This document shows, in pieces, positions 1,223 through 16,500 of a stretch of 64,000 nucleotides of DNA; the stretch's first letter is position 1; the number at the start of each line of letters is the position of its first letter. The notes beneath the pieces were generated by a model. The model was not told the DNA's origin and ran no database searches. It saw only the letters and a program-made list of their open reading frames with translations. The position numbers and the translations under genes are program-made. The DNA is taken from contig CAYSDY010000002.1 in assembly GCA_964429995.1 (NCBI GenBank), positions 110,361 to 174,360 of the forward strand. Direction: 5' to 3'. The DNA is from an uncultured Methanosarcinales archaeon. Its GTDB lineage: Archaea > Nanobdellota > Nanobdellia > Woesearchaeales > UBA583.

Positions 1223-4200
1223 TTAACATTCTCCTTCATTATATTTTGTGATTCCTGCCTTATTTGCAAGACAACTATTTGGATAAGTTTTCTTATTGGC
1301 ACAAACAGGTTCGTAATCAGAAGAACATAGAACATTCTTTGAATAATCTGTGGAGTCGTTGCTAAAAATGTTTTTTATCCATCGTTCAATTTTTCTAAAA
1401 ACACTAGGTTCTAAATTAGTGATTTTGATTTTTCCTTCTGTAAATTTTAAGTAAAAAGTTTGTCCAGGATTTTTGGATAAGATAATTTCTTCAAGTATTT
1501 CTTGATTTATTTCTATTAGTATTTGTGCATTTTGCGAATGGTCTTCTTGAATGATTCCAGTGCTTATATCAATATTTAATTTTTCTATACTTAAATCTGT
1601 TCTAATTCCGTTAATGTTGATGATGTTTTTTGTTTTTAGAAAATTAACCAGATCATCATAACTTGAGATATAATAATCTGCTATTTGAATGTAGGTTATA
1701 TTTTCTAAAGATTTATTCAATAAGTGTTGACTGATGATTTCTGATAAATCTTCTTTACTTAAATTAGTTTTTTTACTTTGGTTTTTATCTAGTATTATTT
1801 CAAAATCATAATCTTTTTTATCACACATTTTTTTAAGGATGAAATAGCTTGCTTCTAATTCTTGATGATTTAGAACCTTATCGTTCTTTGATTTAATATT
1901 TCTATTTCTGGAAATTGATTTTAATTTTTCTAAGCTGGAATCTTTAGAAATAATAGTGTAATTTTTATTTTTGTAATATGAATCTGATAAATATGTATTT
2001 TTAATTGATTCAAAATAACTGCAATCTAATTTAAGGCTTTTAAAATCAGTTGCCTTTAAACTGATACCTATATTTTTTTTTATATCGTTAAATTTAATAG
2101 AATCGAATAAAATTTCTATTCTTTTATAGGTTGGTTGTGTAATGTTTAATTCTTTTACAGGCTCTGGTGTGATTGCAAACATTCTTACATATCTTTGGTA
2201 AGTAATCATTTTAAGTTCACAGTCATATGAGTTTTTTGAACATTCTAAGGCAAGAATTTGGTTTTTATTAGGATTAATATCAATTGCAACAATATTTTTA
2301 TTGTTTGTTACATTGTATACTAAATCTATTCTTTTTAAAGCAAAATCATAATAATAAATACTGCTATTTAATGTTTTATTATCAATTTCTATTTCTCCTA
2401 AAGAAAAAAACATACCTTTTGGAATATTATTAGAATCTAGTTTGTAATCAAATCTTAAATCATATATTCTTCCTTTTGGTATTGTAAATTCAAAAGTTGA
2501 ATTAATTGGATATTTATTTAAAATATTTTTATCGTTTTTAATTATTTGAACAATAGCCCCAGAACTTGAAGATCCGTGTGTTGTTAATGCTATATATTTT
2601 CCGTCGTTAGAATATGCAACATAAGCAGGATTATAATAAGATCCCTTTGTAGATAAAACATCAAATACAAAGGTTTTATTTGTGCTATTATTTATGCCCA
2701 TGTAGTTATGATAAACTAAAGAATGTGTATTAGATGATATGTATGATGATGGGTCAATTCCTACTTGTTTAGACATTATATAAGATTCTTTTGAATCAGC
2801 AGGATTTCTCATTAAATATTGTTGACAATTTGGAACATTAGTTCCAAAATAACTATGATTTGAGTATAATTCGTAATATTTGTCTAAATATTCCTGTTCA
2901 TTAATTCCGTAATAATATTTTGCTCCCATTAATTCGGATTCTTTAAAATAAATCCATTCTGCTGAGTTAACAGAAGATAGTTGTTTATTAGGGGAAATAG
3001 ATTCTAAATTTACATTTAATGTGGGGAAAAATCTTATTTTAAACAAATCCAATTTAGTTTGTGGGTCTTTTTCTTTACTTACAAAATAAATATTTTTACT
3101 TGCATCTTTTGACCAGCCAGTTAGAAATTGTTTTGTATAATCGGGAATGTAAAAAAGAGCATTTCTTATAAAATTAAAACTATTACTATTTTCGTTAAAA
3201 TTCATTAAGTGATACAATAGGCTTTTATCTATTTGGGAATTACTATTAGATGCTACACCATAGATAAAAGAATTTCCATCAGGTGAAAAATAACCGCAAG
3301 TATCTCTTTGTGAATTTCCACTGTCTAAAACTCTTATAGACTTAACGTTGTAGCTAAAATTATTATTGAAAAATAAACTTATATTTTTAGATTTTTTATC
3401 TTCAAATTCATCTTTTATTGAATCTTTTGATACACATTGTCCATTTTTCCAAATTTTATTATTTAATACAGAACATGCTTTATGTAAATTTGATTCGTAA
3501 CATGTATCAAAAAAAGCGTCCCAAATAAAATTATTTTCTTTACAATCTTCTTCATCTTCTAAGTCAAAACATTCGTCTAAAGAATCAGACCAATACAAAT
3601 CATCATTTAAACATTCTGCTTGTTCTATTGATTCAGCACAAACTCCATAAGAAGAAACAAATAATCCATCTTCATCACAACATTCATCTTCACTTTCAAC
3701 ACACATTCCTAAATTTTCACAAAAGAAAAGATCTTCAGACATACATTCATAAACATCTTCCGATTCAATACAATCTCCATCTAAATAAAATGCTTCCTGT
3801 TCAATACATTCCATTTCAAAATCTGATTCATAACATGAATCAGTTATAATACTCCAAAAATTTCCTTCAATTAAACATTCTGCTTCATTTTCTGTTTCGG
3901 CACAATATTCTTCATCTTCAACCCAAAAGCCATTTTTCCAGTTTGTACATTCAAATTCATTATATTCTACACCTTCAGAAATACAATATCCATCTTCCCA
4001 AATTCCACCTGTTTCTTCACAATATCCCTGTTCAAACGAAACACATTCATCTTCTTGGTTTAAAATTCCTGAACAATAATCATCTGTATCATATTGACAA
4101 AGACCAATTTCAAAACAGGTTGCTTGTTCTAAATCTATGCATTCATCTAATTCATCAATATACATTTGTTCTTCATATTCACAACATTCAGGAGTAGAAC

Positions 4201-4657
4201 CTCTGATTAAGCTGTCATCAATAAACATGTCACAATTTTCAATCATGTAATCTGCAAATACTTCCCAGCAGAAATCATTCATTTCATCTTCATATTCATA
4301 AACGCAGATATCACCGTAATAATCTTCATTTTCTTCAACACATTCTTGTCCATTGCTATATTCTGGAAATTCTGCCAGACAATCATTTTCGTATTCCTCT
4401 TTATGTTCATTTAAACATTCCCAAGAATATATTGAATCACCAAGTGGAAATTCTTCTAGACACATATTTTTTAATTCATCTGCAAAATCATTTTCGCAGA
4501 CTTCCTGACAAGCTAATTGATGGAAAAAAGTTCCATTAACAAAATTAGCAAAAATTAAAATATTAATAAAAAGAATTAAGATTTTATTAATATTAACGTA
4601 TCTTTTAAATTCAATTATATCTTTTTTTGAATTATATTTTTTTAATGAATTACTCAT
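1223..4657 (-). CDS. Large membrane-anchored/secreted protein: Cys-rich acidic tandem repeat region, PD40/TolB-like beta-propeller repeats, C-terminal Kazal-type inhibitor-like domain
   Basis: 1144-aa ORF. N-terminal signal anchor ILILFINILIFANFV. About 60 Cys in D/E-rich repeats (ECxxE...C). FSPDGNSF and YSNDGKYIAL PD40-like motifs. C-terminal CSSDYEPVCANKKTYPNSCLANKAGITKYNEGEC matches the Kazal Cys/Tyr spacing. Confidence 0.6.
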   Translation of the reverse strand: MSNSLKKYNSKKDIIEFKRYVNINKILILFINILIFANFVNGTFFHQLACQEVCENDFADELKNMCLEEFPLGDSIYSWECLNEHKEEYENDCLAEFPEYSNGQECVEENEDYYGDICVYEYEDEMNDFCWEVFADYMIENCDMFIDDSLIRGSTPECCEYEEQMYIDELDECIDLEQATCFEIGLCQYDTDDYCSGILNQEDECVSFEQGYCEETGGIWEDGYCISEGVEYNEFECTNWKNGFWVEDEEYCAETENEAECLIEGNFWSIITDSCYESDFEMECIEQEAFYLDGDCIESEDVYECMSEDLFFCENLGMCVESEDECCDEDGLFVSSYGVCAESIEQAECLNDDLYWSDSLDECFDLEDEEDCKENNFIWDAFFDTCYESNLHKACSVLNNKIWKNGQCVSKDSIKDEFEDKKSKNISLFFNNNFSYNVKSIRVLDSGNSQRDTCGYFSPDGNSFIYGVASNSNSQIDKSLLYHLMNFNENSNSFNFIRNALFYIPDYTKQFLTGWSKDASKNIYFVSKEKDPQTKLDLFKIRFFPTLNVNLESISPNKQLSSVNSAEWIYFKESELMGAKYYYGINEQEYLDKYYELYSNHSYFGTNVPNCQQYLMRNPADSKESYIMSKQVGIDPSSYISSNTHSLVYHNYMGINNSTNKTFVFDVLSTKGSYYNPAYVAYSNDGKYIALTTHGSSSSGAIVQIIKNDKNILNKYPINSTFEFTIPKGRIYDLRFDYKLDSNNIPKGMFFSLGEIEIDNKTLNSSIYYYDFALKRIDLVYNVTNNKNIVAIDINPNKNQILALECSKNSYDCELKMITYQRYVRMFAITPEPVKELNITQPTYKRIEILFDSIKFNDIKKNIGISLKATDFKSLKLDCSYFESIKNTYLSDSYYKNKNYTIISKDSSLEKLKSISRNRNIKSKNDKVLNHQELEASYFILKKMCDKKDYDFEIILDKNQSKKTNLSKEDLSEIISQHLLNKSLENITYIQIADYYISSYDDLVNFLKTKNIININGIRTDLSIEKLNIDISTGIIQEDHSQNAQILIEINQEILEEIILSKNPGQTFYLKFTEGKIKITNLEPSVFRKIERWIKNIFSNDSTDYSKNVLCSSDYEPVCANKKTYPNSCLANKAGITKYNEGEC

Positions 4658-4915: not shown

Positions 4916-5548
4916 ATGGTAAAGCTACTTACAGAAAAACAATTGAATATCTTCAAGGTTTTTAGAGAAAATATTTTCAAAGAATATACCTATAATGAAT
5001 TAAAAGAAAAACTAGATGAAAAATCCAATAGTTTTTTAATATCTTCTTTAAAAAAAATTAAAGAAATGGATTTAATTATAGATCAAAAAATTAATAATTC
5101 TAAAATTTATTATTTAAATTTAGAAAATGATTTAGTTTTTGATTATATTGAACTTATAAATTACGATTTTTATAAATCAAATACATTAAAAAAAATAATT
5201 AATTTATTAAAAAATCAATTAGATACTCAACTATATTCATACTCAATTGTAATATTTGGATCTTTTGCAATAGATAAAGAGAAAAAAAACTCAGATTTAG
5301 ATATTGCAATTTTTATTGAAGATGAGAGAAATAGAGAATTTATTGAAAATAGTTTTAAATCAATTAAACTAAAATCATTAATTGAATTAGATTTACATGT
5401 AATTTCAAAAAAAGAATTTTTAAAGATGTTAAAAGTTGATTATTCTAATTTGGGTAAACTAATTTATCAAAAACATAAATGTATTTATAATACGAAATTA
5501 TTTTATAAAATATTAAAAGAAGGAGATAAAAATGGATTTAGAATATAA
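4916..5548 (+). CDS. Nucleotidyltransferase (minimal Pol-beta-type NTase, MNT-like) with N-terminal wHTH-like region
   Basis: IFGSFAIDKEKKNSDLDIAIF matches the GS...D.D signature of minimal nucleotidyltransferases. The downstream gene overlaps by 17 nt. Confidence 0.6.
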   Translation: MVKLLTEKQLNIFKVFRENIFKEYTYNELKEKLDEKSNSFLISSLKKIKEMDLIIDQKINNSKIYYLNLENDLVFDYIELINYDFYKSNTLKKIINLLKNQLDTQLYSYSIVIFGSFAIDKEKKNSDLDIAIFIEDERNREFIENSFKSIKLKSLIELDLHVISKKEFLKMLKVDYSNLGKLIYQKHKCIYNTKLFYKILKEGDKNGFRI

Positions 5549-5712: not shown

Positions 5713-6276
5713 TCAATCAGCATAAATAGTTTCTTCATCATATTTATTATATATATGATTCATATTGTTTAAACTTTTTAACTGAATTTTTTCATTATTT
5801 ATTTCAACAATACTTATTGATGTTGGATCTAATACAATATTTTTTGTTTTTTCAGGTTCGATCTCTAATGTTTTTGAAATGAAAAACTTCATAATATTCC
5901 CATGAGAAACAACAAATACTTTTTTAAGATTCATAGATATTAATTTATTCCAAAAAATATTAGCTCTTTCTAAATCTTCTTCAATTCTATTCGATCTTGT
6001 ACCTTCTTTAGGAGCACCTCCGACAATTAATCTATGTATCTCTTGAAGTTCATTTGTTATTTTAAGCTCTGGTTTATTGATATTTTGTAATTGAATTTCT
6101 TTTGCTGTTAGTTGAGCTCTTTCTAAATCAGATGATATAATTAAATCAATTTTTTCATTTTTTAAACTTTCTGCTAATAGATTTATTTGTTTTTTACCAT
6201 TCTCAGTAAGAATTGGAGGTTTATTTGGGTCTAAATTGGCTTCTGTTTCTGCATGTCTAATTAAATATATTTCCAT
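5713..6276 (-). CDS. Histidine phosphatase family protein (phosphoglycerate-mutase-like)
   Basis: N-terminal LIRHAETEAN (RHG-type catalytic His motif) and later SHGN. Last gene of the tightly packed minus-strand operon, 1 nt after the upstream stop. Confidence 0.7.
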   Translation of the reverse strand: MEIYLIRHAETEANLDPNKPPILTENGKKQINLLAESLKNEKIDLIISSDLERAQLTAKEIQLQNINKPELKITNELQEIHRLIVGGAPKEGTRSNRIEEDLERANIFWNKLISMNLKKVFVVSHGNIMKFFISKTLEIEPEKTKNIVLDPTSISIVEINNEKIQLKSLNNMNHIYNKYDEETIYAD

Positions 6277-6277
6277 T

Positions 6278-6850
6278 TTACTTAGTTAAAATATCATAAA
6301 TATTCTTCTCTAGTTCTTCTTTAACATTATCAAAAGAATGATTAGTATTCATATAATTAATATTTATTTCTAAGTTTTTAGCTATTTCTTTTGAATAATT
6401 TTGAAATTTTTCTTTATCATTTGTTCCTTGATAAATAACTATATCTTTGTTTTTCAAATGATTGATGTCAAACACTACATCTTCTAACTTCAACAAACCT
6501 AAATCTGTATTCATTATGTTAGATATAGTTGAATTTCCAATAATTATAGGAGATGCCAAAAATATATATTTATCAAAATTAATATTGGTTAATAAAGAAA
6601 TAACTCCACCAAAGCTTTTACATATTGTAAAAATATGTTTATAGTTTTTTTCTTCTTTTTTTAATTCTAAATTAATTAATGAAACAAGCTTATCAAATGT
6701 TGTATTTTCAAAATCACAAATAACCTCTATAACATCAAACTTATCTTCAAATGTTTCTATTTCAAATAATGAATCAAACTTTTTTTTAGATGCACCTGAA
6801 AAAAACACTATTAAAGATTCATTTCTATTATCAATTATTTTATTTATCAT
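6278..6850 (-). CDS. Small alpha/beta-hydrolase-like protein (putative Ser-Asp-His)
   Basis: LIVFFSGA, CKSFGG (nucleophile-elbow-like), QGTNDK and NHSF motifs. I prefer the internal ATG at 6850 (11-nt overlap with the upstream gene) over the longest ORF start at 6928. Confidence 0.45.
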   Translation of the reverse strand: MINKIIDNRNESLIVFFSGASKKKFDSLFEIETFEDKFDVIEVICDFENTTFDKLVSLINLELKKEEKNYKHIFTICKSFGGVISLLTNINFDKYIFLASPIIIGNSTISNIMNTDLGLLKLEDVVFDINHLKNKDIVIYQGTNDKEKFQNYSKEIAKNLEININYMNTNHSFDNVKEELEKNIYDILTK

Positions 6851-7880
6851 TTTTATTATACATACATAATAAGTTTCCTTTATATAATTCTCCAGTTTCC
6901 CAATATGAATAAGCTCTACAACCTCCACATAATTGAATTAATTCACAATCTTTACAATTACCTTCAAATTTCCTATTCCTCATGATATTATAATCTTTAG
7001 AATTGTTCCAAATATCAATTATAGAAGTAGTATTAGTATCACCAATTATAATATCATTTAACATAGGACAGAATGCTACATTACCATCATTATTAAAATA
7101 CATATAACTAATTCCAACACTACAACCTGCATACAAATTAAAAGTACCATAATTGTCTTTAATATTTTGTAATAATGATTTATTTGCAGCTAATGCCAAT
7201 GGATCTCCAGAGAAATAATGAATATTATATTTTTCAGAATATTTTGGAAGTTGTTCTAATATTTTAAAATATTCTTTTTTATCTACGAATAATTCTTTTT
7301 CATTAAGATTGGCATATCCCATATAAATACATCCTCTCAATCCAACTTCATCTGCACCTAAATCTTTTGCAAATTTAAAGAAATCTTCAATGTCATCTTT
7401 ATTAATATTCATTATTGTAAGTCTTAAAACAAATGGAATATTTAACAACACACAGTTTTGAGATGCTTCTACTACCTTATCATATGATAATTTATTTTGT
7501 CTAATATAATTATGAGTTTCTTTTTTATAGCTATCTAAAGAGAATTGTATTCTATCCAAACCTATTTCTTTTAATTTTTTTAATTTTTCTAAATTACAAA
7601 AATATGCATTTGAAACCAATATTATTTTCATTTTAGTATTTTTCTTAATAAATTCAATAATTTCATATAAATAAGGATATAGTAATGGCTCTCCACCCCC
7701 TAATTCTATCCATTCAACTTCATCTCCCCAGTTTGTATTTATTTGGGTTAAGATATCTATTACTTTTTCTTTTGAGATATGATTATTCTCATCAACTCTT
7801 CCTCTACAATGTAAACATCTAAAATTACATTTTCCTGTTAAATCAATATGTATTATTTTCGGTTTAAATTTTAAGTTCAT
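6840..7880 (-). CDS. Radical SAM enzyme with C-terminal SPASM/twitch-like Cys-rich domain
   Basis: CNFRCLHC (CX3CX2C) near the N-terminus. C-terminal CKDCELIQLCGGCRAYSYWE Cys cluster. The ATG at 7880 forms an ATGA overlap with the upstream stop; an alternative ATG lies at 7943. Confidence 0.8.
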   Translation of the reverse strand: MNLKFKPKIIHIDLTGKCNFRCLHCRGRVDENNHISKEKVIDILTQINTNWGDEVEWIELGGGEPLLYPYLYEIIEFIKKNTKMKIILVSNAYFCNLEKLKKLKEIGLDRIQFSLDSYKKETHNYIRQNKLSYDKVVEASQNCVLLNIPFVLRLTIMNINKDDIEDFFKFAKDLGADEVGLRGCIYMGYANLNEKELFVDKKEYFKILEQLPKYSEKYNIHYFSGDPLALAANKSLLQNIKDNYGTFNLYAGCSVGISYMYFNNDGNVAFCPMLNDIIIGDTNTTSIIDIWNNSKDYNIMRNRKFEGNCKDCELIQLCGGCRAYSYWETGELYKGNLLCMYNKNDK

Positions 7881-8626
7881 TTTTTTAATGTTGTTATTGC
7901 CCTTGGTTGTAATATATATATATTTCCATGATATATTGTCCATTCAATATCCTGTGGATATTTAAATATAGACACTATTTGTTTACCAATTTCAGCTAAT
8001 TCATAAATTTGATTTTTAGATAAAATATTTTTATTTCTACCATACATATGTCTAATATTATCAGAGTTAATTAAATATGTATCTGCAATTGTATTACCTG
8101 AAACTAATGCGTCACATGTTCCTGCTTTTACTTCTAATAACATCTCTTCTTTTTTTGACATTGGACTTTGTGTAAACAATGTTCCTGAAAAATTGCCTTT
8201 CAAAAACTCTTGTATGATTACAGCGAATGACAAATTATCAATATTTATTGATAAAGCTAAAGCATAGTCTTGTAATCTTTCTGATTTAGAAGAATTCCAG
8301 CAAGAAATGATACTTGATGCAATATTTTCCACTTTAACATTTAACAACGATTCAAATTGACCGGGGAAAGCATATTTATTTCCATCTTCTAGATTGGAAG
8401 ATGACCTCACAGCATAATTTTTTTCATGATTTACAAATGAATTAAATGTTTTATCTTGTTTTAATAATTTTTCTAATTCTTCTATATTTGGATTTTGCTG
8501 TCTAATAGTATCTGAGATTACAATTCCTTTTGGGACTAAAATATTATGTTTTATTATTTGTGATAAATTAAATGCTTTATTTCCGTATAAATTTCTATCG
8601 TGAATCCTTGCCAAACCATCTATCAT
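7877..8626 (-). CDS. PEP-utilizing enzyme N-terminal ATP-binding domain protein (PPDK_N / PEP synthase / rifampicin phosphotransferase-like), stand-alone
   Basis: YGNKAFNLSQI and YAVRSSSNLEDG correspond to the GGKAANL and AVRSSA.AED motifs of PPDK_N. ATGA overlap at both ends. Confidence 0.65.
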   Translation of the reverse strand: MIDGLARIHDRNLYGNKAFNLSQIIKHNILVPKGIVISDTIRQQNPNIEELEKLLKQDKTFNSFVNHEKNYAVRSSSNLEDGNKYAFPGQFESLLNVKVENIASSIISCWNSSKSERLQDYALALSINIDNLSFAVIIQEFLKGNFSGTLFTQSPMSKKEEMLLEVKAGTCDALVSGNTIADTYLINSDNIRHMYGRNKNILSKNQIYELAEIGKQIVSIFKYPQDIEWTIYHGNIYILQPRAITTLKK

Positions 8627-9630
8627 TTTCTTTTAATTTTTGCTTCTCCAATATTTTCATCAAAGTTAACTTTTATACTAATAATATCATCATCTTGTAT
8701 TTTTTCAGTTCCTTTATTATTATACAATTCAGTTCCAACTATACAAGGGATGTCTAATTCTCTAGAAACAACTGCTGCATGACAAGTTATTGAACCAGTA
8801 TCAGTAATTATTCCGCCTGCTTTTGTCATTAAACTTGTTAATTGAGGATCTGTTCTTGGTGCAACAAGTATATCACCTTTATTAAAATTCATATTTTTTA
8901 AATCATCTCTAATAGTTATAGGGTCAAACTTTGTTAGTATTTTAGCAATTCCTTCTATTTCCCCTTCTGATGCAGGAATTCCATTTATTATTTGTTCCAA
9001 ATTAGTTTGTTTAGAAAAAATTAAAGCAGCTTGCATATAATCTAATTTAATTTTTTGATTAAATCTGTCTACTAAATTATTTTGATAACTATTAATTGGG
9101 TCAACTAATCTTATATAGCTATTCTTATGTCCTCTAATTACAATATTATGAGTAGGATAGCTAGTTGGGTAATTAATTTCAACTAATATTGGTAATCCTT
9201 TCTCAACAAATGGATGCAAATCGTCATATTCAAAAGGCCCATTTATTATATTAAAATTTTCACTATTTGATAATTCATCTATATATGGCAAAAATTCATT
9301 CATAAAATCATCAAATAAATCATGTGGGAAAAATATAGGATTTGGTTTTCTTGGGCCCTCCATTAACATAGTTACACGATATCCATTATCAATAGCATAT
9401 TTAGCAAGTTTGGGATAACTTCCATATTCTCCAAACCCTCCTTCCCAAAATCTAATGATTCTATGTATTTCCATTTCTTTTTCTTCTGTTAATGGATATT
9501 TCTCAGGTTCAAAATAATTAAACATCATTAATGCACTTGCAGCTATGCAAGTAGTTGGAGTAGTTTGTAAATAACTATTAACAGCTAATTTTATACTTTT
9601 TCTTTGTAAATAATTATATTTATCTTCCAT
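8623..9630 (-). CDS. Fusion: papain-fold C39-like cysteine peptidase domain + PEP-utilizing enzyme mobile (phosphohistidine swivel) domain
   Basis: N-terminus has QTTPTTCIAASALMMF, then HNIVIRGH...RLVDPI (Cys-His-Asp pattern of C39 double-glycine peptidases). C-terminus has TGSITCHAAVVSRELDIPCIVGT, the phosphohistidine swivel signature. Confidence 0.55.
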   Translation of the reverse strand: MEDKYNYLQRKSIKLAVNSYLQTTPTTCIAASALMMFNYFEPEKYPLTEEKEMEIHRIIRFWEGGFGEYGSYPKLAKYAIDNGYRVTMLMEGPRKPNPIFFPHDLFDDFMNEFLPYIDELSNSENFNIINGPFEYDDLHPFVEKGLPILVEINYPTSYPTHNIVIRGHKNSYIRLVDPINSYQNNLVDRFNQKIKLDYMQAALIFSKQTNLEQIINGIPASEGEIEGIAKILTKFDPITIRDDLKNMNFNKGDILVAPRTDPQLTSLMTKAGGIITDTGSITCHAAVVSRELDIPCIVGTELYNNKGTEKIQDDDIISIKVNFDENIGEAKIKRK

Positions 9631-10549
9631 CTTCCTTTGTTAAATCTAGTAGTAAATCTTGTTTTATATCTAAAGCATAATTTGCATTATTAACTAAATG
9701 ATTATTACTTTTTGCTTTTAATTTTAAAAAAATTGATTCTCTAAATAATACATCTAAAACACCGAATTCAACTTTGTATCTTTTTTGAGGTTCTTCATAT
9801 CCTCCCCAATGTGACATTCTATGTAATAATCTAATACTTTCTTCTAATTCGGGATGTTTATTAGCAATATTTTCAATTAATGTTTGATATCTTTCAACTT
9901 TTTTATTTTGGTTAGCTTGCACTCTTTCTAATAATGAGAAATCATAGTCTAATTCAAAAGTATTTAATTCTAAATGAGCTAAGTCAATATTAGAATATGT
10001 AAATTCATTTGCAAATTCAGTAATATTTTTGTTTCCATTTCTTACTTGATAAACATAATTTACTAATTGAATTTCAAAACTACTAATTGGAGGGATAACT
10101 ATTTTCTCAGCTGTATCTAATAATTCTTTTCGAATTTTTTCTATTCTTGGCTCTAATCCTTCAGAAACATAAACCCTTAATCTACAATCATTAAATATAA
10201 ATTGTTTTAAGTAAGTCTCCCAATTGTCTTCACTACTTAGAATAACATCCCAATTTTGTGCTAATTGAAATAAAGAATTATCATGTTGATACCAACTAGA
10301 AATATATTTATTAAAAAAGTCTAAATCTGAACATTCATCTCTTTCTTTTCTAATTTGTTTCATAGAATTTGCAAATAAATTTCCAGAGTGTTCAGATTTT
10401 AGTATTAAATTTCTTAACTCAATTAAATCCATGCCTAAATCTTTCAAACTAGAATTTACAACATTATTTATTATCTCACGATTATAGCTTTGTAACCAAA
10501 ATAAATAATCCCTTTCAAATTGAAAGGGCACAGTTAATTTTTGAATCAT
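9620..10549 (-). CDS. Hypothetical protein, co-operonic with the peptide-modification genes
   Basis: 309-aa ORF with no motif I recognise. Its ATG overlaps the stop of the upstream 37-aa ORF (ATGA). Confidence 0.45.
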   Translation of the reverse strand: MIQKLTVPFQFERDYLFWLQSYNREIINNVVNSSLKDLGMDLIELRNLILKSEHSGNLFANSMKQIRKERDECSDLDFFNKYISSWYQHDNSLFQLAQNWDVILSSEDNWETYLKQFIFNDCRLRVYVSEGLEPRIEKIRKELLDTAEKIVIPPISSFEIQLVNYVYQVRNGNKNITEFANEFTYSNIDLAHLELNTFELDYDFSLLERVQANQNKKVERYQTLIENIANKHPELEESIRLLHRMSHWGGYEEPQKRYKVEFGVLDVLFRESIFLKLKAKSNNHLVNNANYALDIKQDLLLDLTKEDGR

Positions 10550-10659
10550 TTTATTCTTCTTTTACTTCTTGTGATTTTTTGTGATTCTTTTATATCAGCT
10601 TTGATACCACCATAAGCAACGCATGCTAGTTGCCATAAAACTTTTTCTGTATTTTCCAT
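10546..10659 (-). CDS. Candidate precursor peptide (37 aa) with double-glycine motif
   Basis: My translation is MENTEKVLWQLACVAYGGIKADIKESQKITRSKRRIK*. The N-terminal half is hydrophobic/acidic and ends in GG. The C-terminal half is strongly cationic. Stop TGA overlaps the ATG of the next gene. A TATA-like tttataaaaat lies about 45 nt upstream. Confidence 0.35.
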   Translation of the reverse strand: MENTEKVLWQLACVAYGGIKADIKESQKITRSKRRIK

Positions 10660-10820
10660 TTTGAAGTATAACAAGATTTACTTGTTATGTATTTATGATT
10701 TTTATTTTTATAAATGTTACGATATTACTCGAAGTTAATAACATTAAAATTTATAAACTTTTGTTTATGTCACTACTAATTACTAAAACTTAAATAGTTT
10801 GAACTTTTAGAATATTATAG
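10660..10820. promoter_or_regulatory. Divergent promoter region (TATA-like boxes on both strands) between the peptide operon and integrase
   Basis: AT-rich 160-nt spacer with tttataaa-type boxes at about 10702..10713 (reading minus) and 10748..10757. Confidence 0.3.
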
Positions 10821-11948
10821 ATGCAGTTTATAGAATCATACAAATTTAAGCATAAAGATTGGAATCAAACAAAAATTAGAGTTTTGATTCACATGGTAAG
10901 AAATTTTGAACCTGAAAATCATAGACTATTTGCTCAAATGCTTTCAATGTTAGAACCTGAAAGCTCAAAGAAAATATTTGAAGAAATAAAAAATATGGGA
11001 GAGTATTTCAAAAGAATTATTGATATTGCAAATGTCGAAGATGAGAAGAATAATTTAGTTGAACAAATTTTAGCTTCAAAAAATGATTCAACAATTAATT
11101 CCACTGAAAGTTATGATGTATTGAGTATGTATAATAAATATAAAGAATCATTTTCTGAGTGGATGTTTACAAATAGAACTAAAAGGTATGCTACAAGTAC
11201 TGTAAATGAATGTTCTAAATTGTTTGCATGTGATGTTAAGAATATTTTAGATATTAGAAGAGAGATTGTAAATAATAAAAGCTTACCTCCTAGAACTAAT
11301 AATGCTTTTAGAGCTTTTTTGAATTTTGTAGAAGAAAAGACTCCAATTAGTCCGATTTTACTAAATGATTTAAGAGTATATATTAAAGGTGGTGTTGGAG
11401 AACATGTTGACAAGAGAGTTCCAACTAAGGAAGAAATTTTAAGATCAATTCAAACAATTAAAAGAGATTATTCCAATAACGATTTAATGCTTTATTATTT
11501 TTTATTTGAGTCAGGATGTAGATTTGAGGAACTTAAGAAAGTTATCTTAGAATTTGATTTTGATAAGTTTGTTGAAGGAGATGATTTTTCTTACTATAAA
11601 TTGTTTTGGAGAAGAGGAAAGAAGAACTCATTTATATTATTCTTTAGACCTGAAACTATAAAACATATTGTAGATAATTTAAAGATTTATCAAGATAATA
11701 CTTATTTAGAAAGGTTTAAAGATTGGCTTCAAGATAATCAAGATATTGAAAGTTCAAAGTATGTAAGAAAATTTACATTTACAGAAATGATTCATACTAG
11801 TGAGATTGATATAACTATTGCAAATCTGTTTCAGGGAAGAACAACAAAAGGAGACATTGGTGAGAAACATTACTTGGAATATGAAAGATTACTAGTTAAA
11901 TGGTATCCAAAATTTTTACCATTTGCAAAAGAAATTGAAGGTGAGTAA
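10821..11948 (+). CDS. int: Tyrosine recombinase / integrase
   Basis: C-terminal catalytic region has ESGCRFEEL (R) and RKFTFTEMIHTSE ... GRTTKGDIGEKHYLEY (H..R...Y). Paralogous to the integrase at 37283. Confidence 0.75.
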   Translation: MQFIESYKFKHKDWNQTKIRVLIHMVRNFEPENHRLFAQMLSMLEPESSKKIFEEIKNMGEYFKRIIDIANVEDEKNNLVEQILASKNDSTINSTESYDVLSMYNKYKESFSEWMFTNRTKRYATSTVNECSKLFACDVKNILDIRREIVNNKSLPPRTNNAFRAFLNFVEEKTPISPILLNDLRVYIKGGVGEHVDKRVPTKEEILRSIQTIKRDYSNNDLMLYYFLFESGCRFEELKKVILEFDFDKFVEGDDFSYYKLFWRRGKKNSFILFFRPETIKHIVDNLKIYQDNTYLERFKDWLQDNQDIESSKYVRKFTFTEMIHTSEIDITIANLFQGRTTKGDIGEKHYLEYERLLVKWYPKFLPFAKEIEGE

Positions 11949-12005: not shown

Positions 12006-13031
12006 ATGAAAGATTTAACAATCAAAGATGAAATTACTGAATTTATTATATATAAAGCACCTAATGAAGAAATTAAGGTAGAAGTATTTTTACATAATGA
12101 AACAGTCTGGTTAACGCAAAAAAGAATGTCGGAACTTTTTGATGTTGGAATCCCTGCAATTTCTAAACATTTAGATAATATTTATTCTGAAGGAGAATTA
12201 GATAAAGATTCAACTATTTCCATTTTGGAAACAGTTCAAAAGGAAGGAAATAGAGAAGTTAAAAGAAAACTCGAGTATTATAATTTAGATGTAATTATTG
12301 CAGTTGGTTATAGAGTTAATTCATATAGAGCAACTCAATTTAGAATTTGGGCAACAAAAATACTCAAAGAATACATTATTAAAGGATTTGCAATGGATGA
12401 TAAGAGATTAAAAAATCCTAATAATGTTTTTGGTAAGGATTATTTTGATGAACAATTAGAAAGAATACGAGATATAAGAAGTAGTGAGAGAAGATTCTAC
12501 CAAAAAATAACTGATATCTATTCTCAGTGTAGTGCTGATTATGATTCTAAATCTAAAATTACTGAAGATTTTTTTGCAATAGTTCAAAATAAACTACATT
12601 ATGCAATCTCTGGAAAAACAGCTGCAGAAATTATATATTCTAGAGCAAATAGTAAAGAACAAAATATGGGACTTACTTCTTGGAAAAATTCTCCTAAAGG
12701 AAAGATTAGAAAAACTGATATTAGTATTGCAAAGAATTACCTTAACAATGAAGAATTGGATTCATTAAATAGAATTGTATCAATGTATTTAGATTATGCT
12801 GAAATGCAAGCTAAAAAGCAAAATATAATGTATATGAAAGATTGGGTTAATAAATTAAATGCTTTTTTAAAATTTAATGAAAGGGAAATCTTACAAGATT
12901 TGGGCAAAGTTACTTCTGAGATTGCTAAAGAGTTTGCAGAAACAGAATTTGAAAAATATCGTATCATTCAGGATAGATTATTTAAGAGTGATTTTGATAA
13001 GTTAATTGAAAAAAGTAGAGATATAAAATAA
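12006..13031 (+). CDS. RhuM family virulence/cell-filamentation-like protein
   Basis: ETVWLTQKRMSELFDV, YYNLDVIIAVGYRVNS, ATQFRIWATKILKEYIIKGFAMDD are the characteristic RhuM blocks. RhuM genes are commonly RM-associated. Confidence 0.75.
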   Translation: MKDLTIKDEITEFIIYKAPNEEIKVEVFLHNETVWLTQKRMSELFDVGIPAISKHLDNIYSEGELDKDSTISILETVQKEGNREVKRKLEYYNLDVIIAVGYRVNSYRATQFRIWATKILKEYIIKGFAMDDKRLKNPNNVFGKDYFDEQLERIRDIRSSERRFYQKITDIYSQCSADYDSKSKITEDFFAIVQNKLHYAISGKTAAEIIYSRANSKEQNMGLTSWKNSPKGKIRKTDISIAKNYLNNEELDSLNRIVSMYLDYAEMQAKKQNIMYMKDWVNKLNAFLKFNEREILQDLGKVTSEIAKEFAETEFEKYRIIQDRLFKSDFDKLIEKSRDIK

Positions 13032-13953: not shown

Positions 13954-16500
13954 ATGGCTAAAAAAAAAGTAAAACTTATTCCAGTCAAAGAAAAAACTAG
14001 TACTGATGATTTTAAAGATCAAGTTAAACAATATACTCATCAAGAATCTAAAAGGATTAATAACCCTCCTATTGGTTTAGTTACAGCAGAAACTGATAGT
14101 TTGAATGGAGTTAAAAAATATGAATATGATCCACATTTAAATCCTCAATTAGTTTGGGCTGGAAAGAAAGAAGGAATTAGTTTTGAAGTTGATACCGTTT
14201 CTCTTCATGTTCATGAAAGAATAGATCCATTATCTATTATTGAGAATGTGAAGAAAAGTGATGGTGAGATACAATTTTCTCTTTTCCATTATTTTGAAAA
14301 TGATAACAGACCTATAAGAGAAGCGATTGAATTTTATAAACACGAACAAAACTGGTCAAATAGATTAATTGCAGGAGATTCTTTGATTGTAATGAATTCT
14401 CTTCTTGAAAAAGAAGGAATGACTAGAAAAGTTCAGATGATTTACATTGATCCACCTTATGGAATTACTTATGGTTCTAATTTTCAACCATTTGTTAATA
14501 AACGAGATGTGAAAGATAGAAAAGATGAAGATTTAACTCAAGAGCCAGAAATGATTAAAGCATTTAGAGACACTTGGGAATTAGGGATTCATTCGTATTT
14601 AAGTTATTTAAGAGATAGATTAAAACTCTCAAAAGATTTATTGACTGATAGCGGAAGTTGTTTTGTTCAAATTTCTGATGAAAACTTACATCATGTAAGA
14701 GAAATAATGGATGAAGTTTTTGGTCCTGAGAATTTTGTTAGTCTGATTGCTTTTAAAAAAGGATTAGGATATTCTGAGAAATTTATTCCTTCTGTTTATG
14801 ATTATTTAATTGTTTATGCAAAGGATAAGACTCAGCAAAAATATAGAAAACCTCTTGTTTTTGATGACGAAGAGAATTTTATTACTTTTGGTTGGATTGA
14901 ATTACCTAATGGTGAAAGAAGAAGAGTTTCTAAAAAAAACGATTTTGTTAATGATAAATTTGTAACTAAAGGGAGATTATTTCAAACATCAACTTTAGTT
15001 TCTAAAGGTTCTGCTAAAGAATCACAAGAATATGAAATGGAAGGAACAAGATATTTCCCTTCGACAGGAACACATTGGAAAACAAAATGTCCTGAAGGAT
15101 TAAATAATTTGAAAAGTAAAAATCGTTTAATTGGCGTGAATAAAACTCTTGCTTTTGTAAGATTTAAAGAGGATTTCCCATATAAAATACCAACTAATGT
15201 TTGGGATGATACATTACAAAGTACATTTTCCTCTGATAAAGTCTATGTTGTACAAACTAATACTAAAGTTATTCAAAGATGTATTCTTATGACAACCGAC
15301 CCAGGAGATTTAGTATTAGATCCTACTTGTGGAAGTGGAACTACTGCATTTGTTGCAGAACAATGGGGAAGAAGATGGATAACTTGCGATACATCGAGAG
15401 TTGCTACAACACTAGCAAAACAAAGATTAATGACATCTATTTTTGATTATTATGAATTAGCTCATCAAAATGAAGGGATTAAATCTGGTTTCAAATACAA
15501 AACTGTTCCACATATTACTTTAGGTTCGATTGCAAATAACGAGCCAACAAATGAAGAAACTTTATACGACCAACCTTTTATTGACAAAAAGCGTAGAAGA
15601 GTTACTGGTCCTTTTACCTTAGAAGCTGTTCCATCTCAGAGAGTAACAAGTTTTGAAGATGTTGAACAAGCAATACAAGAACCTGATATGACAATTGCTC
15701 GTTCTGGAGAAACAATGAAACAGAACGATTGGATTGATGAAATGCTTGCAACAGGAATAAGAGGAAAAGCAGGACAAAAAATTGAATTTGTAAGAATAGA
15801 AACTCTTGGTGGAACAAGATGGGTTCATGCAGAAGCAGAGACTAAAGACGGACAAAAAGTAGTTATTTCTTTTGGTCCCCAATATGCACCATTAGAACAA
15901 AGGCAAGTAGAATTGGCAATTGAAGAATCTCAATCATTAGTTCCAAAACCAAAAATGATTATTTTTGCGTCATTCCAATTTGATCCTGAAGCAGCCAAAG
16001 ATATAGATGAGTTAAAATGGCCTGGAGTCAATATTCTAAAAGTTCAGATGAATACTGATCTCTTAACAAACGACTTAAAGAAAAAGCGTTCAAGTAGTGA
16101 ATCCTTCTGGTTAATGGGACAACCAGATATAGAAGTTAAAAAACAAAACGATAAATATGTTGTAGAAGTAAATGGATTTGATTATTATAACACAAAAACT
16201 GGTGAAATCGAATCTGGAGATTCTTCAAAAATTGCAATGTGGGAATTGGATACTGATTATGATGGAAGAAGTCTTTATCCAAGACAAGTGTTTTTTCCAA
16301 TGGCTGGAAGTGGAGAAGGTTGGGATAAACTCGCAAAAAACATTAAAGCAGTTATTGATGAAGAACTAATTGAACAATATAAAGGAAATATTTCAATCCC
16401 TTTCAAACTTGGTCCAAATAAAAGAATAGCTGTAAAAATTATTGATGATAGGGGAATCGAATCTTTAAAGATTGTGGAGATTAAAGATGGAAACAACTAA
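13954..16500 (+). CDS. mod: Type III restriction-modification system methyltransferase (Mod), N6-adenine/N4-cytosine class
   Basis: DPPYGITYG (motif IV) precedes LDPTCGSGTTAFVAEQWGRRWITCD (motif I), the beta-class order. 848 aa, with a long C-terminal extension. Confidence 0.85.
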   Translation: MAKKKVKLIPVKEKTSTDDFKDQVKQYTHQESKRINNPPIGLVTAETDSLNGVKKYEYDPHLNPQLVWAGKKEGISFEVDTVSLHVHERIDPLSIIENVKKSDGEIQFSLFHYFENDNRPIREAIEFYKHEQNWSNRLIAGDSLIVMNSLLEKEGMTRKVQMIYIDPPYGITYGSNFQPFVNKRDVKDRKDEDLTQEPEMIKAFRDTWELGIHSYLSYLRDRLKLSKDLLTDSGSCFVQISDENLHHVREIMDEVFGPENFVSLIAFKKGLGYSEKFIPSVYDYLIVYAKDKTQQKYRKPLVFDDEENFITFGWIELPNGERRRVSKKNDFVNDKFVTKGRLFQTSTLVSKGSAKESQEYEMEGTRYFPSTGTHWKTKCPEGLNNLKSKNRLIGVNKTLAFVRFKEDFPYKIPTNVWDDTLQSTFSSDKVYVVQTNTKVIQRCILMTTDPGDLVLDPTCGSGTTAFVAEQWGRRWITCDTSRVATTLAKQRLMTSIFDYYELAHQNEGIKSGFKYKTVPHITLGSIANNEPTNEETLYDQPFIDKKRRRVTGPFTLEAVPSQRVTSFEDVEQAIQEPDMTIARSGETMKQNDWIDEMLATGIRGKAGQKIEFVRIETLGGTRWVHAEAETKDGQKVVISFGPQYAPLEQRQVELAIEESQSLVPKPKMIIFASFQFDPEAAKDIDELKWPGVNILKVQMNTDLLTNDLKKKRSSSESFWLMGQPDIEVKKQNDKYVVEVNGFDYYNTKTGEIESGDSSKIAMWELDTDYDGRSLYPRQVFFPMAGSGEGWDKLAKNIKAVIDEELIEQYKGNISIPFKLGPNKRIAVKIIDDRGIESLKIVEIKDGNN

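What the first reader, a model, noticed from the sequence alone, without database searches (positions are those of the whole stretch)
10546..10659. 37-aa ORF with double-glycine motif as candidate precursor peptide
MENTEKVLWQLACVAYGG|IKADIKESQKITRSKRRIK. The first 18 residues are leader-like (acidic then hydrophobic, ending GG). The last 19 are highly basic (7 K/R), core-like or antimicrobial-like. Its TGA stop shares nucleotides with the ATG of the next gene (aaaATGAttc). A TATA-like box sits about 45 nt upstream. It heads an operon that encodes a C39-like domain.
Basis: inference. Interest (0 to 1): 0.7.

Follow-up and report, generated by a model that had tools for sequence, protein, structure and literature searches.

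The report
Conserved archaeal Cys/Gly-Gly precursor peptide gene
The 37-codon reading frame is a real, selected gene for the substrate peptide of a rare, undescribed peptide-modifying gene set in tiny DPANN-type archaea, but its important part is the Cys...Gly-Gly centre, not the basic tail.

Summary
The ORF exists as described, on the minus strand (10659 to 10546). Its TGA overlaps the ATG of the next gene.

An ORF this size means nothing alone: there are 61 ORFs of at least 30 aa in 11 kb. Conservation settles it. All 12 distinct loci I recovered through the neighbouring enzymes carry a homologous 25-42 aa ORF.
- Consensus: [VI]-L-x-[QE]-x-x-C-x-x-C-G-G-[IL].
- Synonymous sites are saturated and the protein is conserved (pS 0.78, pN 0.18).
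- GGAGG ribosome-binding sites precede the ORF in all six closest relatives.
- A hairpin follows the stop codon in 7 loci.

The constant gene set is the peptide, a radical SAM/SPASM enzyme, a ~300-aa all-helical protein with no solved relative, and a C39-like cysteine peptidase with an intact Gln/Cys/His/Asp set. In the window's subfamily the peptidase is fused to a phosphohistidine swivel domain. It is also joined by an Rph-like ATP-grasp protein and a phosphohydrolase.

The precursor idea is supported. The leader/core split is not: the basic tail is unique to this genome, and relatives have 6-13 residue, mostly acidic tails.

No Pfam, NCBIfam, PADLOC or literature description was found. The chemistry is inferred, not shown.

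The parts
10546..10659 (-). Precursor-like peptide gene (37 aa, MENTEKVLWQLACVAYGGIKADIKESQKITRSKRRIK).
   Evidence: Translation. Homologous ORFs are present in all 12 distinct loci (aligned). Codon analysis gives pS 0.78 against pN 0.18. The exact sequence has already been called as a gene in public records (P0123).
10588..10641 (-). Conserved 18-residue block V7-E24 (VLWQLACVAYGGIKADIK-E). It contains invariant Cys13, Cys/Tyr16 and Gly17-Gly18 (10606-10611).
   Evidence: Alignments. In the 17-codon block V7-I23, variable columns by codon position 1/2/3 are 9/5/15 of 17.
10546..10587 (-). Basic C-terminal tail (SQKITRSKRRIK plus stop), not conserved in relatives.
   Evidence: relatives stop 6-13 residues after Gly-Gly, mostly with acidic residues.
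10510..10528 (-). GC-rich hairpin (8-bp stem, CCCTTTCAATTTGAAAGGG) followed by a T-rich tract, 18 nt after the peptide stop codon and inside the first codons of the next gene. Likely a partial terminator or mRNA stabiliser.
   Evidence: the only terminator-like site in 5.6 kb; z = -3.0. An equivalent hairpin follows the peptide stop in the six closest relatives; in four of them z is -4.4 to -5.9. It is absent in L023 and in the distant loci.
10707..10714 (-). TATA-like box (TTTATAAA) in the 161-nt divergent intergenic region. A possible promoter element.
   Evidence: Present in the sequence, but the motif is no more frequent than chance in this AT-rich window.
9620..10549 (-). 309-aa all-helical protein of a rare family. 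It is a constant partner of the peptide, and its function and fold are unknown.
9007..9603 (-). C39-like papain-fold peptidase domain (residues about 10-208 of the 335-aa protein). Candidate Gly-Gly endopeptidase or peptide-binding domain.
   Evidence: Pfam DUF3335 and Peptidase_C39_2 hits are weak. Foldseek top hits are 3erv, 6mpz (LahT150 with leader peptide), PCAT1 and ComA. Q22, C28 and H161 are invariant and D177 is at least 90% conserved across fused and stand-alone forms.
8623..9006 (-). Phosphohistidine swivel domain (PEP-utilizers), fused C-terminally to the C39-like domain.
   Evidence: PF00391 E = 1e-20. PDB hits to PEP synthase and Rph. His284 in the C-H-A-A motif is invariant.
7877..8626 (-). 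ATP-grasp nucleotide-binding protein (PPDK_N), Rph-like.
   Evidence: PF01326 E = 2.8e-34. The closest solved proteins are rifampin phosphotransferases 5hv6/5fbs, E = 4.5e-25.
6840..7880 (-). Radical SAM/SPASM enzyme (346 aa from the coupled start; the longest ORF starts at 7943).
   Evidence: PF04055 and PF13186. The CX3CX2C motif and seven SPASM cysteines are invariant in 10 orthologues. The best PDB sequence hit is PqqE, E = 1.8e-10.
6278..6850 (-). 190-aa protein of unknown function, translationally coupled to its neighbours. It has no counterpart in the relatives.
   Evidence: Gene call in L001. No Pfam, NCBIfam or PDB hit. The motif CKSFGG suggests an alpha/beta hydrolase, but this is an untested impression.
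5713..6276 (-). Histidine-phosphatase superfamily protein, the last gene of the operon. It occupies the place of the HD phosphohydrolase found in the relatives.
   Evidence: PF00300 E = 1.1e-29. HD genes follow PPDK_N in L003, L005, L007, L008 and L015.

Best explanation
The ORF is a translated gene that encodes the substrate (precursor) peptide of a small, rare RiPP-type maturation cassette. The cassette is found so far in Woesearchaeota MAGs and in unassigned metagenome contigs.

**Where the function sits.** The functional part is an 18-residue block, V-L-W-Q-x-x-C-x-x-(C/Y)-G-G-I-x-x-x-aliphatic-charged. It is not the basic tail.

**Proposed mechanism (all steps inferred)**
1. The radical SAM/SPASM enzyme acts on the Cys-containing block, most likely making a thioether-type cross-link.
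2. The C39-like papain-fold domain binds the peptide and cuts at Gly-Gly.
3. The all-helical ~300-aa protein is an obligatory third partner, either an enzyme or a peptide-binding scaffold.
4. In the window's subfamily, the peptidase is fused to a phosphohistidine swivel domain. It takes phosphate from ATP via the separate Rph-like ATP-grasp protein and passes it to the peptide or its product held by the C39-like domain.
5. A phosphohydrolase later removes the phosphate. This is a histidine phosphatase here and an HD protein in relatives.
6. A hairpin just after the peptide's stop codon probably gives more precursor transcript than enzyme transcript.

**Shown:** gene reality, purifying selection, the constant gene partnership, intact catalytic residues and the domain identities.

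**Inferred:** every chemical step, the cleavage site, the phosphate acceptor, and which fragment is the product.
For: **Conservation of the ORF**
- A homologous small ORF is present in all 12 distinct loci found through the enzymes or through the peptide profile.
- Its position in the operon varies: before the rSAM gene, between the rSAM and 300-aa genes, after the peptidase gene, or divergent. That fits a trans-acting substrate, not a cis-acting leader ORF.

**Coding signature**
- pS 0.78 against pN 0.18. Of 17 third codon positions, 15 vary; of 17 second positions, 5 vary. Leu, Gln, Cys, Gly and Ile are kept through synonymous changes.
- GGAGG lies 6-9 nt before the ATG in all six closest relatives.
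- A hairpin follows the stop codon in 7 loci.

**Enzymes**
- C39-like fold and catalytic set.
- rSAM motif plus a full seven-cysteine SPASM domain.
- Swivel His284 invariant.
- ATP-grasp protein closest to Rph.
- No PEP/pyruvate TIM-barrel domain, so pyruvate is not the likely acceptor.
- In Rph the substrate-binding domain sits just before the swivel domain. Here the C39-like domain sits there. The Rph domain order is from my own knowledge of its published structures.

**Phosphate in the pathway**
- An HD phosphohydrolase in relatives is replaced by a histidine phosphatase here. This non-orthologous replacement argues that a phosphoester or phosphoanhydride is part of the pathway.

**Operon coupling**
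- Five of the six gene junctions between 10659 and 5713 are 4-11 nt overlaps. The last, between the 190-aa gene and the histidine phosphatase gene, is a 1-nt gap.
Against: - There are no expression or peptide data.
- Only 12 loci are known, all from metagenomes.
- No RRE/PqqD-like recognition domain was detected: the rSAM core starts at about residue 10 of the 346-aa form, and the 300-aa protein is all-helical.
- No transporter or immunity gene is conserved.
- No Ser/Thr is conserved anywhere in the peptide, so the phosphate acceptor is unknown.
- Four distant loci lack the kinase module entirely.
- The window's own peptide has Tyr where 11 of 12 have the second Cys.
- Hydrophobic positions before Gly-Gly (-5, -8, -11, -12) do not match the canonical -4, -7, -12 pattern of double-glycine leaders. 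That canonical pattern is from my own knowledge.
- The hairpin is absent in L023 and in the distant loci.
Confidence: 0.6

Rival explanations
1. First reader's model, a bacteriocin-like precursor. Residues 1-18 are a double-glycine leader removed by the C39-like domain. The basic C-terminal 19 residues are the mature, antimicrobial-like core.
For: Gly-Gly is nearly invariant and a C39-like domain with an intact catalytic set is always present. Leaders are often better conserved than cores, which is general knowledge of RiPPs.
Against: - The tail is not conserved in sequence, length or charge. Two relatives have only six residues after Gly-Gly, and most tails are acidic.
- An invariant Cys and a near-invariant second Cys sit in the supposed leader, next to a SPASM enzyme.
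- There is no ABC transporter or immunity gene.
- Curated double-glycine leader models do not match.
Confidence: 0.12
2. Peptide-derived cofactor or small molecule, on the PQQ or mycofactocin logic. The peptide is a disposable scaffold. A few residues around Cys/Gly-Gly are cross-linked by the rSAM/SPASM enzyme, excised by the peptidase and tailored, including transient phosphorylation, into an intracellular small molecule.
For: - The best solved sequence relative of the rSAM is PqqE.
- NCBIfam hits include PqqE and the mycofactocin maturase, far below their cut-offs.
- No transporter is present.
- A kinase plus phosphatase pair is typical of small-molecule pathways (inference).
Against: - The distribution is very sparse: 17 relatives of the marker protein in 1.84 billion representatives.
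- Neighbours are integrases, toxin-antitoxin, restriction and transposase genes, which fits an accessory, conflict-related trait better than a cofactor.
- The conserved block of 18 residues is long for a scaffold.
Confidence: 0.15
3. Not a substrate at all. The small ORF is a cis-regulatory upstream ORF or attenuator, or a small structural or metal-binding (CxxC) subunit of the enzyme complex.
For: It overlaps the next gene's start and is followed by a hairpin. A CxxC motif can bind metal or an Fe-S cluster (general knowledge).
Against: - Its position relative to the enzyme genes varies, including a divergent orientation in L022 and a position after the peptidase in L024 and L026. That excludes a fixed cis-regulatory role.
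- The amino-acid sequence is what is conserved, not the nucleotide sequence.
- The window's peptide has Tyr in place of the second Cys, which weakens a strict CxxC metal site.
- Constant pairing with a Gly-Gly-type peptidase argues for processing.
Confidence: 0.08

Closest known systems
Double-glycine leader peptides processed by C39 peptidase domains of AMS/PCAT ABC transporters (LahT150, ComA, PCAT1)
   Same: The peptide has a near-invariant Gly-Gly. The peptidase is a papain-fold domain whose best structural matches are exactly these proteins. The Gln/Cys/His/Asp set is conserved.
   Different: - The peptidase is not part of a transporter. It is stand-alone, or fused to a phosphohistidine swivel domain.
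- Pfam scores for the window protein are below the gathering thresholds.
- The conserved, Cys-bearing part of the peptide lies before and across Gly-Gly, and the part after it is short and variable.
- Curated leader models do not match.
Radical SAM/SPASM peptide maturation systems (sactipeptides and ranthipeptides such as SCIFF/CteB and freyrasin/PapB; PqqE; MftC)
   Same: A small Cys-containing peptide is encoded next to an rSAM enzyme with a complete seven-cysteine SPASM domain. The residue four positions after Gly-Gly is T/S/N/D/E. This resembles the acceptor variety of ranthipeptides, a resemblance recalled from memory and not tested.
   Different: - No RRE domain was detected.
- All NCBIfam peptide-maturase models score far below their cut-offs, and the top hits are NirJ2/AhbD-like.
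- A new all-helical partner protein is obligatory.
- The cross-link itself is unknown.
Rifampin phosphotransferase (Rph) and the PigC/RedH-type PEP-synthase-like ATP-grasp plus swivel-His enzymes
   Same: There is an ATP-grasp protein closest to Rph. There is a swivel domain with the catalytic His. There is no PEP/pyruvate domain.
   Different: The enzyme is split into two proteins. The central substrate-binding domain of Rph is replaced by a C39-like peptidase domain. The presumed acceptor is a ribosomal peptide. I found no paper linking this enzyme type to RiPPs.
Kinase plus phosphatase pairs in natural-product pathways (streptomycin 6-phosphate pro-drug logic; lasso-peptide and class III/IV lanthipeptide kinases)
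   Same: A phosphotransferase and a phosphohydrolase sit in one operon with a modified-peptide gene set.
   Different: The kinase family is different. No Ser/Thr is conserved in the peptide, so a lanthionine-type phosphorylation-elimination route is not supported. The comparison rests on my own knowledge.

Membership tests
Double-glycine (C39-processed) leader peptide | Gly-Gly (or Gly-Ala/Ser) at positions -2 and -1 of the cleavage site. | tested here: met
   G17 is invariant and G18 is present in 11 of 12 sequences (Asp in L019).
Double-glycine (C39-processed) leader peptide | Canonical leader pattern (hydrophobic at -4, -7, -12; Glu at -8), or a match to curated leader models. | tested here: not met
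   Hydrophobic residues are at -5, -8, -11 and -12, with Ala/Ser/Thr at -4 and Ala/Gly/Ser at -7. No NCBIfam or Pfam leader model matches.
Double-glycine (C39-processed) leader peptide | The mature core lies C-terminal to Gly-Gly. | tested here: inconclusive
   The tail is only 6-19 residues. It is conserved for six residues and free beyond that. The Cys residues lie N-terminal to Gly-Gly. The direction of processing cannot be decided from sequence.
Peptidase C39 / C39-like clan (papain fold) | Papain-like fold with catalytic Cys and His, plus oxyanion Gln and Asp. | tested here: met
   Foldseek top hits are 3erv, 6mpz, 7n87, 3k8u and 5xe9, with TM to target 0.51-0.73. Q22, C28 and H161 are invariant and D177 is at least 90% conserved.
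Peptidase C39 / C39-like clan (papain fold) | Pfam score above the gathering threshold. | tested here: inconclusive
   The window protein scores below threshold: DUF3335 22.5 against 25 bits, C39_2 18.4 against 24. The relatives L023, L019 and L022 score above threshold for DUF3335 or Peptidase_C39.
AMS/PCAT bacteriocin exporter | C39 domain fused to ABC transporter transmembrane and ATPase domains. | tested here: not met
   The domain is stand-alone or fused to PEP-utilizers. No ABC transporter is present in any locus.
Radical SAM/SPASM RiPP maturase | CX3CX2C radical SAM cluster motif and a SPASM domain with seven cysteines. | tested here: met
   C18/C22/C25 and C253/C271/C309/C312/C318/C321/C339 are invariant in 10 orthologues. 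PF04055 and PF13186 both match.
Radical SAM/SPASM RiPP maturase | RiPP recognition element (PqqD-like) in the enzyme or in a partner. | tested here: not met
   No Pfam or NCBIfam RRE hit. The rSAM core starts near the N terminus. The partner protein is predicted to be all-helical, with no beta strands.
Radical SAM/SPASM RiPP maturase | Demonstrated cross-link or other modification on the adjacent peptide. | not testable with these tools
   This needs co-expression and mass spectrometry.
Rph / PEP-synthase-like phosphotransferase | ATP-grasp nucleotide-binding domain (PPDK_N). | tested here: met
   PF01326 E = 2.8e-34. PDB 5hv6/5fbs E about 1e-25 to 1e-24.
Rph / PEP-synthase-like phosphotransferase | Swivel domain with catalytic His. 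| tested here: met
   PF00391 E = 1e-20. His284 is invariant.
Rph / PEP-synthase-like phosphotransferase | Single chain with its own central (Rph) or C-terminal TIM-barrel (PpsA/PPDK) substrate domain. | tested here: not met
   The enzyme is split into two genes. There is no PF02896. A C39-like domain sits in the place of the substrate domain.

The most novel reading that the evidence does not exclude
This is a new class of archaeal ribosomal peptide product. Its maturation would couple Gly-Gly proteolysis and His-mediated phosphoryl transfer in one polypeptide, the C39-like domain fused to a swivel domain.

One possible form of that coupling is activation of the newly exposed C-terminal Gly carboxylate, or of another oxygen of the peptide, as a phosphate intermediate for ligation or cyclisation. 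That would be a miniature analogue of ubiquitin-like or Pup-like C-terminal activation.

The pathway would also use a radical SAM/SPASM enzyme and a protein of a fold with no solved relative. It would be carried on mobile or defence islands of DPANN archaea.
Probability: 0.25. Interest if true: 0.88.

Novelty: new variant of a known kind. Interest (0 to 1): 0.72.

Why it matters
- **Organisms.** To my knowledge, modified peptides have hardly been studied in DPANN archaea, which have tiny genomes and live attached to other cells. A conserved precursor with a dedicated enzyme set gives a concrete candidate for how they interact with hosts or competitors.
- **Enzymology.** The cassette combines parts not known to work together: a SPASM enzyme, a Gly-Gly-type peptidase fused to a phosphohistidine carrier, an Rph-like ATP-grasp protein, and a confidently modelled protein with no structural relative. 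It could therefore reveal new peptide chemistry.
- **Method.** A 37-codon ORF read by eye proved to be a real gene that at least one gene caller omitted (the L001/L002 tables), although other public records do call it (P0123).

Tried and rejected
- The word-index search with the 309-aa protein found only the protein itself. Full phmmer was needed.
I repeated it with the TTG-extended ORF.
It was done with ids instead.
- PADLOC gave only generic rSAM/pVip similarity.
- There were no viral relatives.
- Rfam found nothing in this region.
- The bacterial sigma-70 promoter scan is uninformative for an archaeon, with 56 hits against 48 expected.
- Literature searches for this gene combination, DUF3335 and TIGR04053 found no description.

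**Hypotheses rejected**
- *The 309-aa protein is the missing Rph substrate-binding domain.* There is no fold or sequence similarity to Rph, and the family also occurs in loci without any kinase.
- *A lanthipeptide-like route: phosphorylate Ser/Thr, eliminate, add Cys.* No Ser/Thr is conserved. The window has Asp, and L015 and L023 have Asn, at the best candidate position.
- *A cis-regulatory upstream ORF.* The position and orientation of the ORF vary between loci.

**Weak evidence set aside**
- The TATA box occurs no more often than chance.
- The missing Shine-Dalgarno site is not evidence against translation, because most genes in this window lack one.
Full report
**1. The observation**

The ORF is real and lies on the minus strand. 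Its ATG is at 10659 and its TGA at 10546-10548, and the product is MENTEKVLWQLACVAYGGIKADIKESQKITRSKRRIK. The stop overlaps the ATG of the next gene (ATGA, 10546-10549).

The ORF heads a run of seven genes from 10659 to 5713. Five of the six junctions are 4-11 nt overlaps, and the last is a 1-nt gap.

| Order | Gene | Window coordinates (minus strand) |
|---|---|---|
| 1 | Peptide, 37 aa | 10546-10659 |
| 2 | 309-aa protein, unknown function | 9620-10549 |
| 3 | 335-aa protein: C39-like domain plus PEP-utilizers swivel domain | 8623-9630 |
| 4 | 249-aa PPDK_N ATP-grasp protein | 7877-8626 |
| 5 | Radical SAM/SPASM enzyme | 6840-7880 |
| 6 | 190-aa protein, unknown function | 6278-6850 |
| 7 | Histidine phosphatase (His_Phos_1) | 5713-6276 |

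An ORF of this size carries no weight alone, since there are 61 ORFs of at least 30 aa in 11 kb. The TATA-like box TTTATAAA at 10707-10714 exists, but the motif is no more frequent than chance in this 25% GC window: 57 found against 62 +/- 10 expected. Most genes in the window lack a Shine-Dalgarno sequence, so its absence before this ORF says nothing.

**2. Is it a gene?**

The 309-aa neighbour had no word-index hits. The C39-swivel protein had six full-length relatives at about 40% identity.

Their contigs all show the same cassette (and L015/L018 read): rSAM/SPASM, then a small gap, then a ~310-aa protein, the C39-swivel protein, PPDK_N and an HD protein. In every one the gap holds a small ORF homologous to the window's. 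Examples:
- MEKVLWQFSCLACGGISGSLDEEEN
- MEETTNNDSVILWQFACVACGGINATLE
- MEKAVNVEKNENVVLWQMACVTCGGINATIE
- MEKKIVLWQLGCLACGGINGTIDENYTAD
- MEKVLWQFSCVACGGISGNLEEECD

A profile of these peptides, searched against 5.8 billion proteins, found only four called proteins. These were the window's own peptide (P0123), two already seen, and one new (P0125) that sits in the same cassette.

A full phmmer search of the 309-aa protein against 1.84 billion representatives gave only 17 relatives. The more distant ones lie in loci that again hold an rSAM/SPASM gene, a ~280-300-aa relative and a stand-alone ~200-aa C39-like protein. Each also has a homologous small ORF, but in a different place:

| Locus | Position of the small ORF | Peptide |
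|---|---|---|
| L019 | Before the rSAM gene | MEKQELETSLEMSCVACGDVGEIPSLDNSQDD |
| L022 | Divergent from the rSAM gene | MKGDGMVVLLEYACLTCGGIAPSAIEIERK |
| L024 | After the peptidase gene | ...VLQEFGCVACGGLSSEETCEQAEEA |
| L026 | After the peptidase gene | ...VLSEFGCISCGGLTPEEICKEIEEE |
| L023 | Before the closest relative of the window's 309-aa protein | ...IVLYELACISCGGIKANVKKFIEF |

In total, 12 of 12 distinct loci long enough to judge carry the peptide. Across the 12 sequences M1, C13 and G17 are invariant, and L8, C16 and G18 are at least 90% conserved.

At codon level, over a 17-codon block in seven loci, synonymous sites are saturated (mean pS 0.78) and non-synonymous change is low (pN 0.18, ratio 0.23). 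Fifteen of 17 third positions vary against 5 of 17 second positions. All six closest relatives have GGAGG 6-9 nt before the peptide ATG. No relative has a frameshift or stop.

**3. What part of the peptide matters?**

Constraint covers an 18-residue block, V7 to E24 in the window, on both sides of Gly-Gly. Before the block there are 3-18 variable residues, usually starting M-E-K. After it there are 0-13 free residues.

The window's basic tail SQKITRSKRRIK has no counterpart elsewhere. Ten relatives have acidic or neutral tails, and two stop right at the end of the block.

An invariant Cys and a near-invariant second Cys next to a SPASM enzyme point to the centre of the peptide as the site of chemistry. 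That is an inference from what is known of thioether-forming SPASM enzymes.

The residue four positions after Gly-Gly is T, S, N, D or E. This recalls ranthipeptide acceptor residues, but it is a resemblance from memory and was not tested.

**4. The enzymes**

- *C39-like domain.* The AF2 model has pLDDT of about 85-93 over residues 10-208. Foldseek places it with a C39-like peptidase (3erv), LahT150 bound to its leader (6mpz), PCAT1 and ComA. Gln22, Cys28 and His161 are invariant and Asp177 is at least 90% conserved across fused and stand-alone forms.
- *Swivel domain.* It has the invariant His284 and matches PEP synthase and Rph.
- *ATP-grasp protein.* It is closest to rifampin phosphotransferase, E = 4.5e-25.
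- *Missing domain.* There is no PEP/pyruvate-binding domain.
- *rSAM enzyme.* It keeps CX3CX2C and all seven SPASM cysteines. All curated maturase models score far below their cut-offs.

Because this protein also occurs in kinase-less loci, it is not simply the substrate domain of the kinase.

**5. Regulation**

The only terminator-like site in 5.6 kb is an 8-bp GC-rich hairpin at 10528-10510. It lies 18 nt after the peptide stop and inside the first codons of the 309-aa gene (z = -3.0).

The six closest relatives have a 30-48 nt gap at the same place, and each gap holds a GC-rich hairpin. In four of them z is -4.4 to -5.9. L023 and the distant loci lack it.

This matches the common arrangement in peptide-product operons where a leaky terminator raises precursor transcript over enzyme transcript. 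That comparison is general knowledge and the function here is inferred.

**6. Model**

*Shown:* a selected peptide gene that always travels with an rSAM/SPASM enzyme, a new helical protein and a catalytically intact C39-like peptidase.

*Inferred:*
- The SPASM enzyme cross-links the Cys block.
- The peptidase cuts at Gly-Gly.
- In the Woesearchaeota-type subfamily, the peptidase domain also presents the peptide to its own fused swivel domain. That domain carries phosphate from the ATP-grasp protein to the peptide or product.
- A phosphohydrolase removes the phosphate later.

The replacement of HD by a histidine phosphatase in the window supports a real phosphate step. The acceptor is unknown, because no Ser/Thr is conserved.

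Two correlations are worth testing, but the samples are small and phylogenetically confounded:
- Loci with the kinase module have W or Y at position 9 (8 of 8). They have Q at position 10 in 7 of 8. Kinase-less loci have neither aromatic residue at 9 and always have E at 10.
- The only peptide with Tyr16 instead of Cys16 is also the only one whose operon has a histidine phosphatase instead of HD.

**7. Context and novelty**

The cassette sits next to mobile or defence genes in six loci:

| Locus | Neighbouring genes |
|---|---|
| Window | Archaeal integrase, RhuM, type III restriction-modification, RmuC, UvrD-nuclease, SbcC-like ATPase |
| L003 | Integrase, KilA-N, PIN |
| L022 | HicAB, PIN |
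| L024 | Integrase, SNase |
| L023 | DDE transposase |
| L026 | LAGLIDADG |

This favours an accessory, conflict-related role. The named genomes are Woesearchaeota MAGs, and no viral copy was found.

Neither Pfam, NCBIfam nor PADLOC has a model for the peptide or the 300-aa protein. I found no paper describing the combination.

I classify it as a new variant of a known kind: an rSAM-type RiPP cassette with a Gly-Gly peptidase. It has two unprecedented features, the peptidase-swivel fusion with an Rph-like kinase and a partner protein without structural relatives.

**8. Confidence**

| Claim | Confidence |
|---|---|
| The ORF is a real, selected protein-coding gene | about 0.95 |
| It is the substrate of the neighbouring enzymes | about 0.8 |
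| The full mechanism as stated | about 0.6 at the level of roles, much lower for any specific chemistry |

Noticed in passing
window 10821-37000: There is a large mobile or defence island directly upstream of the operon, transcribed divergently. It holds an archaeal integrase (10821-11948), RhuM (12006-13031), a type III methyltransferase and Res (13954-19288), RmuC (20535-21797), a HATPase_c_3 protein (21868-23283), a UvrD helicase with a PD-(D/E)XK nuclease (26412-29243) and an SbcC/SMC-like ATPase (31269-34664).
   Followed up: partly
window 1223-4657 (-): A 1144-aa protein has a very acidic, Cys-rich N-terminal half and no Pfam hit. Its C-terminus (CSSDYEPVCANKKTYPNSCLANKAGITKYNEGEC) looks like a Kazal-type inhibitor motif. 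That is from memory and was not tested.
   Followed up: no
window 59778-61907 (+): A single 709-aa ORF fuses phosphoglycerate kinase (residues 7-387) to a PfkB-family sugar kinase (residues 411-698).
   Followed up: no
window 4916-5548 (+): A MntA-like nucleotidyltransferase, with PADLOC PDC-M05A/PDC-S09 hits, lies convergent with the end of the operon. It is probably a toxin-antitoxin or defence remnant, not part of the cassette.
   Followed up: no
L003 14787-16932: The Woesearchaeota contig that carries a relative of the cassette also has a second trio about 8 kb away: a radical SAM gene, an APH-type kinase and a His_Phos_1 gene. This is the same phosphatase family that ends the window's operon.
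   Followed up: no
L010 2131-3055: In one metagenome contig the ~300-aa partner gene is split into 85-aa and 212-aa ORFs, while the peptide and the rSAM gene are intact. This is a frameshift or an assembly error.
   Followed up: no
peptide positions 9, 10 and 16 (window 10633-10635, 10630-10632, 10612-10614): An aromatic residue at position 9 and Gln at position 10 track the presence of the kinase module. Tyr16, which is unique to the window, coincides with the swap of HD for a histidine phosphatase plus an extra 190-aa gene. The sample is small and confounded by relatedness.
   Followed up: partly
proteins P0009-P0121: Hundreds of CPR and DPANN proteins of 450-580 aa carry a C-terminal swivel domain behind an N-terminal region with no Pfam domain recorded. 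For P0012, the match to PEP synthase 8a8e begins at residue 328, so only the first ~330 residues lack a solved sequence relative. Split PEP-synthase/Rph-like phosphotransferases with unknown substrate domains appear to be common in these lineages.
   Followed up: partly
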